A stretch of DNA of 64,000 nt from Bacillota bacterium (GTDB lineage: Bacteria > Bacillota > SHA-98 > UBA4971). The DNA lies in contig JAAZLO010000028.1 in the NCBI GenBank assembly GCA_012689375.1, forward strand, positions 25,665 through 89,664, given 5' to 3'. Positions within the stretch are counted from its first letter, which is position 1. Every line of letters starts with the position of its first letter. Position numbers and translations under genes: made by a program. The notes under the pieces were generated by a model that was not told the origin of the DNA, ran no database searches, and saw only the letters and a list, made by a program, of their open reading frames with translations. Shown here piece after piece: positions 31,942 to 61,856 of the stretch.

Positions 31942-31987
31942 GCACTAAACCTCCTGCCTACAAATTCAAAAAGATTATACCATACTG

Positions 31988-32102
31988 GTGACAGGGGCGG
32001 TGGGGGCGGTGACAGGGGGACGGGGTTACTGTCACATCCTGTACATCAACCGGGTGGTTTATGTGACAGTAACCCCGTCCCCCTGTCACGTCCCCCTGTC
32101 AC
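31988..32102. repeat. Perfect 29-bp inverted repeat plus GTGACAGGGGG iterations in the tsaE/ade divergent intergenic region
   Basis: GTGACAGGGGGACGGGGTTACTGTCACAT at 32009-32037 is the exact reverse complement of 32061-32089, with a 23-nt loop. Additional GGTGACAGGGG copies lie at 31988 and, as the reverse complement, at 32092-32102. Each arm is itself palindromic (GTGACAG...CTGTCAC). Confidence 0.7.
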
Positions 32103-32120
32103 CAAGGGAGGGAGAAATTT

Positions 32121-33923
32121 ATGTCACTGTATCCGATAAGAAAACATCTTTACGAGATAGGCCATGAGCTGGTAGCTACTGCAACAGGAAGAACCCCGGC
32201 TGATGTCATTATTCGATCCGGGCGTTTAGTTAATGTTATAACACGTGAGATCCTTGATGGGCCGGATATTGCAATACGTTTTGGGCGGATTGCCCTAGTC
32301 GGGGATGCCTCAAAATGCAGAGGTAGGGATACTTTGGTTATAGATGCAAAGGGATCTTATCTGGTCCCGGGGTTTCTTGATGGTCATGTCCATATAGAAA
32401 GCAGCATGGTTACAGTGGGCCAGTTTGCCAAAGCAGTGCTCCCCTATGGAACCACCGCCGTCTTTATGGACCCCCATGAAATTGCAAATGTTCTTGGTAT
32501 GAAAGGGATCAAGTTAATGATAGAGGAGGGAAAAAATCTCCCGCTCAAAGTTTATACTACAATGCCGTCATGTGTCCCTGCGGCCCCGGGTTTTGAAGAT
32601 ACAGGAGCAGAAATTACCCCGGATGATATCAGTACTGCAATGGCCTGGGATGAAGTAGTGGGTTTAGGAGAAATGATGAATTTCCCCGGGGTTTTAGCGG
32701 GGGATCCTGATGTACACAAAAAAATTGCATCCACGTTGAAGGCAGGTAAAGTCGTCACTGGTCATTATGCTGTCCCTGATCTCGGTCCGAATTTATCCGG
32801 TTATGTATCGTGCGGTATTTTATCTTGCCACGAATCTGTCACTTGTCAGGAAAGCCTTGCTAAACTCAGGTTGGGGATGTATGCAAAACTCAGGGAGGGT
32901 TCAGGCTGGAAGAATATTAAAGAAACCATCAAAACCTATACTGAAGCAGATGCTGATCCTCGTCGTATAGTCTTGGTTACAGATGATGTCCATCCTGATA
33001 CCTTATTAACTTTAGGCCATATTAATCATGTGGTGAAACGGGTAATTGAAGAAGGAACACAGCCTATTACAGCTATTCAAATGGCTACCATTAATACTGC
33101 AGAATGTTTCGGGATGAGCCGCGATTTAGGAAGCATTACTCCGGGTAAGTTTGCGGATATTTTATTTATTGAGGATCTTGCAAATCCGTATCCTGAAAAG
33201 GTTATGGCGGACGGGAAGGTAATTGCTGAAAACCGGAAGATGCTCATGGAAATCCCGGTAGGGACCTACCCCAGGTATGCAACTAAATCTATGAATCTTG
33301 CGCGCTCTGTAGTCCCGGATGATTTTTATATTAGTTCAGGATCCCCGGGTAAAAGTGTTAGAATCCGGGTTATACAGGTTATAGAAGGCCAAGCCATAAC
33401 AAAACAGGTAGAAGTGGGAGTCTGCTCCGATAAAAATGGAGGAATTAATGCATCTCGCAATCAGGATTTAGCGAAGGCGGCTGTTATAGAAAGGCATAAG
33501 GGCACAGGTAAAATAGGGTTGGGTTTTGTTAAAGGGTTCGGGCTTCAATCCGGGGCAGTGGCTTCTACAGTCGCCCATGATAGCCACAACCTGCTTGTCA
33601 TGGGTATGGATGATGATGATATGGCTGTTGCAGCCAATACTTTGGCTGAAGTCGGCGGTGGAATGGTTGTTGTAAAACGGGGTGAAGTGATAGGCCTCCT
33701 TCCTTTACCTGTTGCGGGTCTTATGTCAAACAAACCGGTAGAGGAAGTCCAATTAAAGGTAGAAAGCCTGGCACAGGCATGGAAGGATTTAGGGTGTACC
33801 CTGACATCACCCTTTATGACTATGGCCATTCTTTCCTTACCTGTCATCCCTGAACTTCGCCTGACAAACCGAGGATTAGTTGATGTTGAAAAGTTCTGTT
33901 TTGTTCCTTTAGTGATTAGCTGA
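32121..33923 (+). CDS. ade: Adenine deaminase (amidohydrolase superfamily)
   Basis: 600 aa. Metal-binding block VPGFLDGHVHIESSM, and ADGKVIAEN in the second domain. The architecture is typical of Ade. Confidence 0.8.
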   Translation: MSLYPIRKHLYEIGHELVATATGRTPADVIIRSGRLVNVITREILDGPDIAIRFGRIALVGDASKCRGRDTLVIDAKGSYLVPGFLDGHVHIESSMVTVGQFAKAVLPYGTTAVFMDPHEIANVLGMKGIKLMIEEGKNLPLKVYTTMPSCVPAAPGFEDTGAEITPDDISTAMAWDEVVGLGEMMNFPGVLAGDPDVHKKIASTLKAGKVVTGHYAVPDLGPNLSGYVSCGILSCHESVTCQESLAKLRLGMYAKLREGSGWKNIKETIKTYTEADADPRRIVLVTDDVHPDTLLTLGHINHVVKRVIEEGTQPITAIQMATINTAECFGMSRDLGSITPGKFADILFIEDLANPYPEKVMADGKVIAENRKMLMEIPVGTYPRYATKSMNLARSVVPDDFYISSGSPGKSVRIRVIQVIEGQAITKQVEVGVCSDKNGGINASRNQDLAKAAVIERHKGTGKIGLGFVKGFGLQSGAVASTVAHDSHNLLVMGMDDDDMAVAANTLAEVGGGMVVVKRGEVIGLLPLPVAGLMSNKPVEEVQLKVESLAQAWKDLGCTLTSPFMTMAILSLPVIPELRLTNRGLVDVEKFCFVPLVIS

Positions 33924-60557: not shown

Positions 60558-61856
60558 ATGATCATCACCCGTAAAAAGCTGATAGCTATTGTTGTAGGAA
60601 TATGTATTTCTGTAATAATTCCAATTATTACAAGCAGGCATTTATCTCTGTCTGTTACAAGCAGGATATATACGAGGTTAAATAGGTATCCTGAGATTAT
60701 ATTCATTCCGAATTATACTGAGGGACCTCATTTAGCGGCAAGATCCGCTGTATTGATTGAGGCTTTGACAGGTACAGTAATTTACGGAAAAAATGAGCAT
60801 ATGCGTATGCATCCTGCCAGTACAACGAAGATAATGACTGCCCTTCTTGCAATAGAGCTCGGAGATATTGAATCCACTGTGATTGTCAGCGAAGATGCAG
60901 CAAGGGTTGGGGGATCTTCTTTATGGCTGAGAAAAGGCCAAAAAATAAAACTTGGGGATCTTATCCGAGGGGTAATGCTTAAATCAGGCAATGATGGCTG
61001 TGTTGCTATTGCCCAACACATAGCAGGCAAGGAAGAAAGTTTTGTAAGAATGATGAATTTGAAAGCCCAAAAGCTGGGCGCAGTTAATACGAAGTTCTCC
61101 AATACCCATGGCTTAACTGAGCCGGATCATTATTCCACTGCATTCGATTTAGCCCTTATGGCCGGATATGGGTTGAAATATCCATTATTTGCAGATATAG
61201 TAAGCACACGGGAAGCAGAAATAACTATAACCCAGGGGGAATCTGACGAAAAGCGCAAGCTTGCCAACACCAATTGGTTGCTCTGGTCTTTTGAAGGTGC
61301 AGATGGTATAAAAACAGGGACTACAGCAGCTGCTGGCTATTGTCTTGTAGCATCGGCTACCCGCAACAATGTCCAATTTATATCAGTGGTGTTGGATTCA
61401 GATGCAAGATGGTCTGATTCTGCGGCACTTTTAAATTACGGTTTTGAGAAGTTCCGTGTCATGACTTTTGCCGAAAGGGGTTCCACCGTTACTGGGATCG
61501 GTGTTGAAAAAGGAATGGAACCTGAAATCAAGGTAATGGCATCAGATAATATGAGGCTTGTGATTCCACGGGATCTTTCTCATTTGTTTGAGCAAAGGAT
61601 TATCCTTGATGAACCAGTCATTGCACCTGTTTTTCCAGGCCAAACAATAGGCAGGTTGGTAATTATATTTGATGAGGCTGAATTAGCGTCAGTGGATTTG
61701 ATTGCGGAAACAGGTGTAGCCAGGTTGACATTGCCCCGTGTAATAATAAGGAAATTTAAAGATATTATGGTAGGACGAAGGTATAGGAATGCTTCAGTAA
61801 ACACCGGAGGTGAGCTATTTTGGGATTCTCTAAAAGCAAGGTTACCGATGTTATAG
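60558..61856 (+). CDS. D-alanyl-D-alanine carboxypeptidase (PBP5/DacB/DacF type)
   Basis: The SxxK motif is ASTTK, the SxN motif is SGND, and the KTG motif is KTGTT. It has the C-terminal PBP5-type beta domain. N-terminal anchor or signal. Confidence 0.8.
   Translation: MIITRKKLIAIVVGICISVIIPIITSRHLSLSVTSRIYTRLNRYPEIIFIPNYTEGPHLAARSAVLIEALTGTVIYGKNEHMRMHPASTTKIMTALLAIELGDIESTVIVSEDAARVGGSSLWLRKGQKIKLGDLIRGVMLKSGNDGCVAIAQHIAGKEESFVRMMNLKAQKLGAVNTKFSNTHGLTEPDHYSTAFDLALMAGYGLKYPLFADIVSTREAEITITQGESDEKRKLANTNWLLWSFEGADGIKTGTTAAAGYCLVASATRNNVQFISVVLDSDARWSDSAALLNYGFEKFRVMTFAERGSTVTGIGVEKGMEPEIKVMASDNMRLVIPRDLSHLFEQRIILDEPVIAPVFPGQTIGRLVIIFDEAELASVDLIAETGVARLTLPRVIIRKFKDIMVGRRYRNASVNTGGELFWDSLKARLPML

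What the first reader, a model, noticed from the sequence alone, without database searches (positions are those of the whole stretch)
31988..32102. Perfect 29-bp inverted repeat with nested palindromes and four GTGACAGGGGG copies in the tsaE/ade divergent promoter region
GTGACAGGGGGACGGGGTTACTGTCACAT (32009-32037) is repeated as its exact reverse complement at 32061-32089. Two more GGTGACAGGGG units sit outside it, at 31988 and as the reverse complement at 32092. Each arm contains its own GTGACAG...CTGTCAC palindrome. Chance is unlikely to leave a perfect 29-bp inverted repeat. It sits exactly between the divergently transcribed tsaE operon and adenine deaminase. That position suits a regulator operator array, a structured RNA at the ade 5' end ending 30 nt before the ATG, or a miniature repeat element. 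The motif does not appear elsewhere in the window.
Basis: seen in the sequence. Interest (0 to 1): 0.5.

Follow-up and report, generated by a model that had tools for sequence, protein, structure and literature searches.

The report
REPIN-like mobile repeat, not an operator
The perfect inverted repeat between tsaE and the adenine deaminase gene is one copy of a small palindromic repeat scattered through this bacterium's genome and tied to a domesticated tyrosine transposase. This copy is a hybrid of two copies that sit at separate loci in other strains, so it marks a genome rearrangement rather than a dedicated regulatory site.

Summary
The arms 32009-32037 and 32061-32089 are perfect reverse complements inside a ~119-nt palindrome (31986-32104).

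It is not a locus-specific operator or riboswitch. The 27-nt unit GTGACAGGGGG-N9-CTGTCAC is a dispersed, mostly extragenic repeat in many anaerobic Bacillota and Coriobacteriia. It occurs as singletons and as inverted doublets with extra outer GTGACAGGGGG(AC) units, as here.

In five different orthologues, a Y1 HUH transposase gene of the RAYT/TIRYT type has this unit 1-9 nt after its stop codon. Its only PDB match is E. coli TnpA-REP. The window's own species has such a gene (NLS45482.1) at one fixed locus, plus at least five other copy loci.

In several other assemblies of the same species there are two separate, nearly identical doublets: thiT-[A]-ade and peptidase_C26-[B]-tsaE. The window's element is B on the tsaE side and A on the ade side. 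It is therefore a recombinant between two REPIN-like copies, or less likely an assembly chimera. The join removed ade's promoter-like site.

Verdict: a new member of a known kind (REPIN/RAYT group 1 = TIRYT). It is of moderate interest as evidence that this RAYT class does carry hairpin repeats in Gram-positive anaerobes.

The parts
31986..32104 (.). Whole REPIN-like element: an inverted doublet of two 27-nt REP/TIR units plus outer partial units.
   Evidence: I1, I2, I4. It folds as one long hairpin: DNA -52.9 kcal/mol, z = -11.2; RNA -93.5 kcal/mol.
31987..31997 (+). Outer partial unit GGTGACAGGGG, followed by a degenerate unit CGGTGGGGGC (31998-32007). This tsaE-proximal part is identical to 'copy B' of other strains.
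   Evidence: D5, D6; alignment A1.
32009..32035 (+). Left REP unit GTGACAGGGGGACGGGGTTACTGTCAC (G-rich orientation). The crossover between copy B and copy A lies between about 32008 and the spacer SNP at 32049.
32036..32062 (.). 27-nt spacer ATCCTGTACATCAACCGGGTGGTTTAT. Base 32049 = A is the copy-A allele; copy B has G.
   Evidence: window and L182 read ...ATCAACCGGG; L175 and L177 read ...ATCAGCCGGG.
32063..32089 (-). Right REP unit, inverted (reads GTGACAGTAACCCCGTCCCCCTGTCAC on the + strand).
32090..32102 (-). Outer partial 13-nt unit GTCCCCCTGTCAC, in direct tandem with 32077-32089. This ade-proximal part is identical to copy A.
   Evidence: D3.
31974..31982 (-). Extended -10 TGgTATAAT of the tsaE operon, just outside the element and kept in every arrangement.
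   Evidence: Read from the sequence. It is conserved in L001-L004 and L175-L177. This is an inference from consensus, with no mapped start site.
32104..32123 (+). ade Shine-Dalgarno sequence AAGGGAGGGAG and ATG (32121), abutting the element.

Best explanation
The element is a REPIN-like non-autonomous repeat. Two 27-nt hairpin-capable units (GTGACAGGGGGAC..CTGTCAC) sit in inverted orientation around a 27-nt spacer, with extra partial units outside.

It belongs to a family that is dispersed in this genome and in many anaerobic Bacillota and Coriobacteriia. That family is the cognate repeat of a single-locus Y1 HUH tyrosine transposase of the RAYT group 1 / TnpA-REP subclass 2.1 / 'TIRYT' type.

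Inferred mechanism, by analogy with E. coli TnpA-REP and IS200/IS605: the transposase recognises the units as single-stranded hairpins or sequence motifs during replication, then cuts and rejoins them. This copies whole doublets to new extragenic sites and changes the number of outer units.

Shown here: this particular copy is a hybrid of two sister doublets found in other strains, thiT-[A]-ade and peptidase_C26-[B]-tsaE. It therefore marks a rearrangement breakpoint, most simply explained by homologous recombination within the ~41-nt identical stretch.

A side effect (inferred): ade kept its ribosome-binding site but lost the promoter-like site it has in the copy-A arrangement. The tsaE extended -10 was kept.
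For: 1. Dispersed and multi-copy.
Many MAGs carry 3-12 loci each, and identical 27-mers recur up to 13 times.
- The exact window 27-mer lies at 15 or more unrelated flanks in metagenome contigs.

2. Extragenic. Only 29% of hits lie inside ORFs of 150 aa or more, against 84% of random positions (p = 8e-45).

3. Same architecture elsewhere. Inverted doublets with outer partial units occur in L015, L032, L073, L163, L141 and L193:9163-9283.

4. Transposase link.
- A 253-255-aa Y1_Tnp protein (Pfam 3.6e-15) gives a REP_Tyr_transpos match of 62-75 bits, E down to 7e-21.
- Its only PDB match is 4ER8 TnpA-REP, with the HUH and Y---NP motifs aligned.
- The repeat lies 1-9 nt after the stop codon, in the same orientation, in five orthologues of 44-100% identity (L193, L187, L108, L082, L043). 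A second, inverted unit lies 85-111 nt upstream of the start in L108 and L187.

5. The window's own species has the gene. P0090 = NLS45482.1 is in the same NCBI accession block as the window proteins NLS44552-44600. It occurs in the same samples with matching SPAdes coverage: 6.86 against 6.6-7.1, and 8.44 against 8.2-8.4. It has one gene context in all nine places, followed by GTGACAGTAACCCCGTCCCCCTGaCAC. Three more copy loci lie within 10 kb.

6. Hybrid origin. Copies A and B are at separate loci in ERZ925077, ERZ778607 and ERZ773357. Alignment A1 shows the window is B on the left and A from the spacer rightwards. Seven or more contigs from independent assemblies end inside the element.

7. 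Unit number varies between strains.
Against: - No transposition event or empty site was seen, so current mobility is only inferred.
- The unit lacks the GTAG tag of classical REPs.
- In the window's variant the hairpin of a single unit is weak: a 7-bp stem with a 13-nt loop, -5.6 kcal/mol. Recognition may therefore be by sequence (TIR-like) rather than by hairpin.
- The RAYT-like proteins score below NCBIfam's RAYT cut-off (62-75 against 80 bits).
- The species' own RAYT has no unit within 400 nt upstream.
- Copy density in this species is modest: one in the 64-kb window and none in about 20 kb of extra sequence beyond the window ends.
- The window comes from a metagenome-assembled genome. The tsaE-ade junction could be an assembly chimera. 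The reciprocal junction (thiT-element-C26) was not found.
Confidence: 0.85

Rival explanations
1. Operator array. The four GTGACAGGGGG units are binding sites for a transcription factor that co-regulates the divergent tsaE operon and ade.
For: - The units are short, repeated and arranged symmetrically in a divergent intergenic region.
- The element occupies the -35 and upstream region of the tsaE promoter.
- A degenerate unit supplies the -35 TTGACA of the thiT promoter-like site in copy A, so local effects on promoters are plausible.
Against: - tsaE and ade are not neighbours in most strains; each carries its own copy beside unrelated genes.
- The same unit sits at many unrelated loci and after stop codons in dozens of genomes.
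- Unit number varies between strains at over 99% identity.
- The conserved partner is a transposase gene, not a regulator.
Confidence: 0.04
2. Structured cis-regulatory RNA (riboswitch or attenuator) in the ade 5' leader.
For: - The RNA fold is very stable (-93.5 kcal/mol, z = -8.3) and ends just before the Shine-Dalgarno sequence.
- In the copy-A arrangement a promoter-like site lies upstream of the element (TTCAGA-18-TATGAT), so there the element would be transcribed as the ade 5' UTR. It could then affect mRNA stability or translation as a by-product.
Against: - No Rfam family reaches its gathering score; the only hits are generic miRNA-hairpin matches on both strands.
- A perfect palindrome has no ligand-pocket-like irregularity.
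- The same hairpin occurs at unrelated loci and in both orientations.
- In the window no promoter-like site lies upstream of it on the + strand.
Confidence: 0.05
3. The tsaE-element-ade junction in the window is an assembly chimera, made by joining reads of copy B and copy A across their shared repeat. The element is real, but its position between tsaE and ade is not.
For: - The window is from a MAG contig.
- Three assemblies show the A and B loci separately.
- Many contigs break inside the element.
- The reciprocal junction was not recovered.
Against: - An independent k=127 contig (L005) carries 22 nt of a different, allele-specific tsaE-side flank and outer units. These match L004 from the same run, and L005 runs through the whole element into ade.
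- The exact sequence shared with copy A as seen in other strains (L182; copy A of this strain was not recovered) is about 55 nt, well under the k-mer length. This is inference.
- The crossover point differs between the window and L005, which fits two natural recombinants.
Confidence: 0.2
4. End remnants (a MITE or PATE) of an autonomous IS200/IS605-type insertion sequence, rather than a RAYT-type system.
For: - The associated protein hits Pfam Y1_Tnp 'Transposase IS200 like'.
- IS200/IS605 ends are also subterminal hairpins.
Against: - The profile's only PDB hit is TnpA-REP (4ER8); no IS608 or ISDra2 TnpA appears at E <= 1.
- The Y---NP motif and the C-terminal helix-turn-helix are class 2 / subclass 2.1 features (PMC6006769).
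- The gene sits in one fixed context between tRNA-Ser and tRNA-Arg in all nine places across five or more assemblies.
- Homologues are almost absent from plasmids: 4 of 72,556 records, all under 35% identity.
Confidence: 0.05

Closest known systems
REPIN-RAYT systems of Pseudomonas and Enterobacteria (Bertels & Rainey 2011, PMC3116915; RAYT groups 2 and 3)
   Same: - Two short palindromic units in inverted orientation around a spacer, together forming a ~100-nt hairpin.
- Extragenic and multi-copy.
- Sister copies share the spacer (A and B differ by 1 SNP), so the doublet was copied as a unit.
- The cognate HUH/Y transposase is at a single fixed locus, with the repeat next to it.
   Different: - No GTAG tag.
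- The transposase belongs to another RAYT group (C-terminal HTH, 253 aa).
- The hosts are Gram-positive anaerobes.
- Copy numbers seem to be tens rather than hundreds.
- Outer tandem partial units are prominent.
TIRYT / TIRtron elements (Di Nocera et al. 2013, PMC3733652) = TnpA-REP subclass 2.1 (Quentin et al. 2018, PMC6006769) = RAYT group 1 (Bertels et al. 2017, PMC5581495)
   Same: - A RAYT-like Y1 protein with a C-terminal helix-turn-helix.
- The gene is flanked by inverted repeats containing a G-run motif. The published consensus is GGGGWSAS. Sister variants here read GGGGACAG (8/8); the window variant reads GGGGACGG (7/8).
- The repeats form moderately abundant families organised as singles, dimers and clusters.
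- Group 1 is reported in Clostridia.
   Different: - The published examples named in the text I read are Proteobacteria and Acidobacteria. Quentin et al. state that no REP-like sequences were found near subclass 2.1 genes.
- Here the flanking repeat is a 27-nt hairpin-capable unit, with a conserved position 1-9 nt after the stop codon and REPIN-like doublets.
- I could not place the protein in their tree directly.
Classical E. coli REP/BIME and TnpA-REP (PDB 4ER8)
   Same: - The only solved structure matched by the family profile (E = 1e-4), with HUH and Y motifs aligned.
- Known REP side effects (recombination hot spots, effects on mRNA stability and termination) fit what is seen here.
   Different: - The REP sequence is unrelated.
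- The GTAG guide tetranucleotide is absent.
- The protein here is longer, with an extra DNA-binding domain.
Other short dispersed palindromic repeats (MITEs generally; IS200/IS605-derived hairpin elements). This comparison is from my own knowledge, not tested here.
   Same: Small, palindromic, dispersed and extragenic. They can carry or disrupt promoters and promote rearrangements.
   Different: Typical MITEs derive from DDE-transposase insertion sequences, with terminal inverted repeats and target-site duplications. No target-site duplication is evident here, and the linked enzyme is an HUH/Y1 protein.

Membership tests
REP/REPIN | Short (20-40 nt) imperfect palindromic unit. | tested here: met
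   The unit is 27 nt with a GTGACAG/CTGTCAC stem. Common variants fold at -9 to -15 kcal/mol; the window variant is weak at -5.6.
REP/REPIN | Many copies per genome, predominantly extragenic. | tested here: met
   Six or more loci in about 190 kb sampled from this species, and 3-12 loci per MAG despite a truncated scan. 29% of hits lie inside long ORFs against 84% of random positions. The total per genome was not measured.
REP/REPIN | Inverted doublet with spacer that forms a long hairpin and is duplicated as a unit. | tested here: met
   Folds. Copies A and B share both units and the 27-nt spacer apart from 1 SNP.
REP/REPIN | Conserved GTAG (or CGTC) tag at one end of the unit. | tested here: not met
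   Units start with GTGAC, and no GTAG or CGTC tag is present. It is therefore not a GTAG- or CGTC-type REP in the sense of PMC3733652.
RAYT (TnpA-REP, class 2 Y1 HUH) | HUH motif plus catalytic Tyr in a Y---NP motif; closer to TnpA-REP than to IS200 TnpA. | tested here: met
   N-H-l-H-L-L and Y-I-F-Q-N-P are invariant in alignment A2. The only PDB hit is 4ER8. NCBIfam REP_Tyr_transpos gives E = 4e-17 to 7e-21.
RAYT (TnpA-REP, class 2 Y1 HUH) | Reaches NCBIfam's curated RAYT equivalog score (NF047646, 80 bits). | tested here: not met
   62.5, 69.9 and 74.6 bits. The protein is homologous but outside the curated equivalog, as expected for a different subclass.
RAYT (TnpA-REP, class 2 Y1 HUH) | Gene flanked by its cognate repeat (REPtron / TIRtron arrangement). 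| tested here: met
   Both sides are flanked in L108 and L187/L138. The 3' side is flanked in L193 (the window species), L082 and L043. The upstream unit is missing in the window species.
RAYT (TnpA-REP, class 2 Y1 HUH) | Single copy at a fixed chromosomal locus, not IS-like. | tested here: inconclusive
   P0090 has one context in all nine places across five or more assemblies, and homologues are rare on plasmids. No complete genome was available to count paralogues. Geosporobacter ferrireducens has at least two paralogues at about 70% identity.
TIRYT / subclass 2.1 | C-terminal helix-turn-helix extension. | tested here: inconclusive
   A conserved C-terminal motif LSIRQIERLTGISRGIIQR is present. 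Pfam HTH hits are only weak: HTH_19 E = 0.005, HTH_23 E = 0.2.
TIRYT / subclass 2.1 | Flanking repeats carry the GGGGWSAS motif. | tested here: inconclusive
   GGGGACAG is present in several sister variants. The window and most common variants read GGGGACGG or GGGGACGT, a 7/8 match.
REP/REPIN | Repeat is bound and cleaved by, and mobilised by, the cognate transposase. | not testable with these tools
   This needs biochemistry or population sequencing.

The most novel reading that the evidence does not exclude
Group 1 / subclass 2.1 RAYTs are the largest and most widely spread RAYT class. For them, no REP-like partner was found in the 2018 survey. They may in fact run a genuine REPIN-type system in Gram-positive anaerobes. 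That system would have a 13-nt core (GTGACAGGGGGAC) conserved across Bacillota and Coriobacteriia, a fixed position of the repeat 1-9 nt after the transposase stop codon, doublets copied as units, and measurable effects on genome structure in natural digester populations (strain-level rearrangements that swap promoters).
Probability: 0.5. Interest if true: 0.55.

Novelty: new member of a known kind. Interest (0 to 1): 0.4.

Why it matters
For genome annotation, this conspicuous palindrome should not be read as a tsaE/ade operator or leader RNA. It explains why metagenome contigs of this organism break here, and why gene order differs between strains.

For the field, REPIN-RAYT biology has been worked out almost entirely in Proteobacteria. 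For the largest RAYT class (group 1 / subclass 2.1 / TIRYT), a systematic survey reported no REP-like partner.

The data here give a concrete, testable pairing in Bacillota: a defined 27-nt unit, a defined 253-aa enzyme (NLS45482.1 and about 5000 homologues), and a conserved gene-repeat geometry. They also give a natural example of repeat-mediated rearrangement that separates a gene (ade) from its promoter-like site.

Tried and rejected
- Rfam in E-value mode gave only microRNA-precursor hits on both strands (best mir-1304, 39.9 bits against a gathering score of 90). I rejected these as generic long-hairpin matches. The gathering scan of the copy-A locus found nothing, including no TPP riboswitch upstream of thiT.
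- A full-text search for the 13-16-mers, as DNA or RNA, found no paper.
- The viral contig scan gave 7 scattered single hits, which I took as chance and did not pursue.
- No RAYT homologue lies in the 64-kb window. No further repeat copy lies in the loci overlapping and extending beyond the window ends, about 20 kb of new sequence.
- The Anaerovoracaceae RAYT (P0001), which carries the identical loop variant, is a different organism. It occurs in other samples, so I did not use it as the window species' enzyme.
- Exact-protein look-ups failed for TsaB, Yip1 and the RND adaptor, because the window alleles differ by at least one residue.
- I tried to recover the reciprocal junction (thiT-element-C26) through ThiT. 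The contigs in the informative samples end inside the element, and one shows a third, unexplained spacer.
- blastn of the element against plasmids found no match.
- A single-sequence phmmer search of the RAYT against PDB found nothing. Only the profile search reached 4ER8.
- The promoter scan of the window's intergenic region found no sigma-70-type site. The tsaE extended -10 was read by eye.

Full report
**Observation**

The sequence is as described. GTGACAGGGGGACGGGGTTACTGTCACAT lies at 32009-32037, and its exact reverse complement lies at 32061-32089 (no shuffle gave a match). The complementarity extends outwards to TGGTGACAGGGG (31986-31997) and CCCCTGTCACCA (32093-32104), which gives a palindrome of about 119 nt at 62% G+C in a 44% G+C window.

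Three GTGACAGGGGG copies are exact. The fourth, at 31988, is GTGACAGGGGC. The motif occurs nowhere else in the 64 kb.

The neighbours are a tsaE-tsaB-rimI-tsaD operon on the minus strand and adenine deaminase on the plus strand.

**First clue: the element is a break point**

Exact-protein look-ups found the same species (99.3-99.9% DNA identity) in several biogas-digester assemblies.

- Many of their contigs end inside the element: L002-L005, L178-L181, L185, L202-L204.
- In L001 the element lies upstream of tsaE, but the other side is a peptidase_C26 gene instead of ade. Identity to the window stops exactly at the element's edge, window 32103.

**The unit is a dispersed repeat family**

- Isolated hits in high-G+C genomes may be chance.
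- Many MAGs of Lachnospiraceae, Oscillospiraceae, Syntrophomonadaceae, unclassified digester Bacillota and Coriobacteriia hold 3-12 loci each.
- Identical 27-mers recur; for example, GTGACAGGGGGACGGTTCTCCTGTCAC occurs 13 times.
- The units occur as singletons, often just after a stop codon, and as inverted doublets with spacers of 5-80 nt. Extra partial GTGACAGGGGG(AC) units often lie outside, which is the same anatomy as the window element.
- The exact window 27-mer lies at 15 or more unrelated flanks in metagenome contigs.
- Hits avoid long ORFs: 29% against 84% for random positions, p = 8e-45.
- A full-text search for the sequence found no paper.

**The partner gene**

In L108 two inverted units bracket a 255-aa ORF that matches Pfam Y1_Tnp (3.6e-15). 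It also matches NCBIfam 'REP-associated tyrosine transposase' at 69.9 bits, below the curated 80.

Orthologues of 44-100% identity sit next to the unit in L082, L043, L132/L138 and L187-L189.

The geometry is constant:

- The C-rich orientation of the unit starts 1-9 nt after the stop codon.
- In L108 and L187 a G-rich unit lies 85-111 nt upstream of the start, ahead of a promoter-like TTGACA...TATTAT.

The family is large, with 4989 proteins at E <= 1e-10. NCBI names them 'transposase' and JGI names them 'REP element-mobilizing transposase RayT'.

A 17-sequence profile has invariant N-H-x-H-L-L and Y-I-x-x-N-P motifs and a conserved C-terminal LSIRQIERLTGISRGIIQR, with weak HTH hits. Its only PDB match is 4ER8, E. 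coli TnpA-REP (E = 1e-4). No IS608 or ISDra2 transposase appears. Homologues are nearly absent from plasmids.

**The window's own genome has the system**

The window proteins are NLS44552-NLS44600 of an NCBI 'Firmicutes bacterium' MAG, on a 104-kb contig. RAYT homologue P0090 is NLS45482.1, in the same accession block.

P0090 is found in the same samples as the window species, with matching SPAdes coverage:

- ERZ778607: 6.86, against 6.57-7.08 for the species' other contigs.
- ERZ773357: 8.44, against 8.22-8.41.

It always sits in the same context between tRNA-Ser and tRNA-Arg. The locus G+C is 43.9%.

Its stop codon is followed one base later by GTGACAGTAACCCCGTCCCCCTGaCAC, the window's loop variant, plus a partial unit. 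Within the same 10.7 kb there are two single units, and a doublet with three outer units on each side lies between convergent genes (L193 9163-9283). No unit lies within 400 nt upstream of the gene.

**This copy is a hybrid**

In ERZ925077, ERZ778607 and ERZ773357 the species has two separate doublets:

- Copy A lies between the divergent thiT and ade (L182/L183 about 2676-2785).
- Copy B lies between the peptidase_C26 stop codon and the tsaE promoter (L175-L177).

A and B share both units and the 27-nt spacer except for one SNP, so the doublet was copied as a unit.

Alignment A1 shows the window is identical to B from the tsaE side through the outer units. It is identical to A from the spacer SNP (32049) through to ade. 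The crossover therefore lies in the ~41-nt identical stretch starting at about 32008.

An independent k=127 contig from SRR3184554 (L005) also runs from a tsaE-side flank into ade. That flank is 22 nt of a different allele and matches L004. L005 has a B-type spacer, so its crossover lies further right.

This favours real recombinants over an assembly chimera. However, the window is from a MAG and I could not recover the reciprocal junction. The ThiT-side contigs end inside the element, and one (L202) shows a third spacer. I put the chimera at about 0.2.

**Local consequences (inferred)**

- tsaE keeps its extended -10, TGgTATAAT (31974-31982, minus strand), in all arrangements.
- In the copy-A arrangement two promoter-like sites lie just outside the doublet. 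TTCAGA-18-TATGAT points toward ade, and an 11/12 TTGACA-17-TATCAT points toward thiT. The -35 of the thiT site lies in a degenerate outer unit. The doublet would then be the ade 5' UTR.
- In the window these sites are gone, and the scan finds no promoter-like site. ade may therefore be poorly expressed in this strain.
- The element forms a very stable hairpin as DNA or RNA. This is a property of every doublet in the family.

**Comparison with known systems**

By function and anatomy this is a REPIN-RAYT system (PMC3116915, PMC3337134).

By protein type it matches three published descriptions of the same class:

- RAYT group 1, reported to occur in Clostridia and to be linked with only moderately frequent 16-mers (PMC5581495).
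- TnpA-REP subclass 2.1, which has a C-terminal HTH. Its authors state that no REP-like sequences were found near the gene (PMC6006769).
- The TIRYT/TIRtron class, whose flanking inverted repeats share GGGGWSAS and form moderately abundant families of singles, dimers and clusters (PMC3733652).

Sister variants here contain GGGGACAG (8/8 match). The window variant contains GGGGACGG (7/8).

The unit lacks the GTAG or CGTC tag, so it is not a classical GTAG or CGTC REP.

I therefore file it as a new member of a known kind. The hairpin-capable unit, its fixed position after the stop codon and its spread across Bacillota and Coriobacteriia are modest additions to what is published.

**Verdict**

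The finding is real, and it is explained as a REPIN-like repeat (confidence 0.85). The operator and riboswitch readings are not supported. Interest is 0.4.

Noticed in passing
window ~61,230 (inside ORF 60558-61856, PBP5-like); L173 and L174: Two independent assemblies (ERZ778607 NODE_1501 and ERZ925066 k127_724644) both start about 575-595 nt upstream of trxB, while two others read through. This may be another strain-variable point or repeat.
   Followed up: no
L182 2650-2678 (copy A of the same species): An 11/12 promoter-like site, TTGACA-17-TATCAT, points toward thiT. Its -35 hexamer lies in a degenerate outer unit of the repeat. Several family variants end in TTGACAC, so these repeats can donate -35 boxes.
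   Followed up: partly
L202 1-40 (ERZ27280802 k141_518211): The thiT-side unit is joined to a different spacer (gcctcattttat) from that in copies A or B. This points to a third arrangement at this repeat in that sample.
   Followed up: no
L187 1833-3551 versus L188 (Anaerovoracaceae RAYT locus): The two assemblies differ by an AAA_14/DUF4143 gene bounded by repeat units, an insertion/deletion polymorphism next to the RAYT gene.
   Followed up: no
L137, L142, L143, L145, L153, L155 (metagenome contigs): In these loci the 27-nt unit is followed directly by a second conserved repeat (about 70 nt, ...aagcaaccgNaatttaagcc...cggttgcc...). This suggests a composite repeat in that organism.
   Followed up: no
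L120 (Denitrobacterium detoxificans, NZ_SUUH01000006.1): Units bracket a repeated ~45-nt segment (cccactctggNcgccagcagcaaagagtcaccagctgccaaat). The same 27-nt core is thus present in an actinobacterial (Coriobacteriia) genome, which raises the question of horizontal transfer of the system.
   Followed up: no
L001/L175-L177, upstream of copy B: In strains with the peptidase_C26-tsaE arrangement, a HicB-like/RHH antitoxin and PemK toxin pair lies just upstream of the peptidase gene. These genes have no match in the window.
   Followed up: no
window 31993-32101: Rfam in E-value mode reports microRNA-precursor families on both strands (mir-1304 E = 2.6e-6, all far below their gathering scores). 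This is a generic artefact of long perfect hairpins.
   Followed up: yes
L193 4718-4812 and 5843-5918: The species' RAYT gene sits between tRNA-Ser(GCT) and tRNA-Arg(TCG). The upstream repeat unit seen in other orthologues is missing here.
   Followed up: partly
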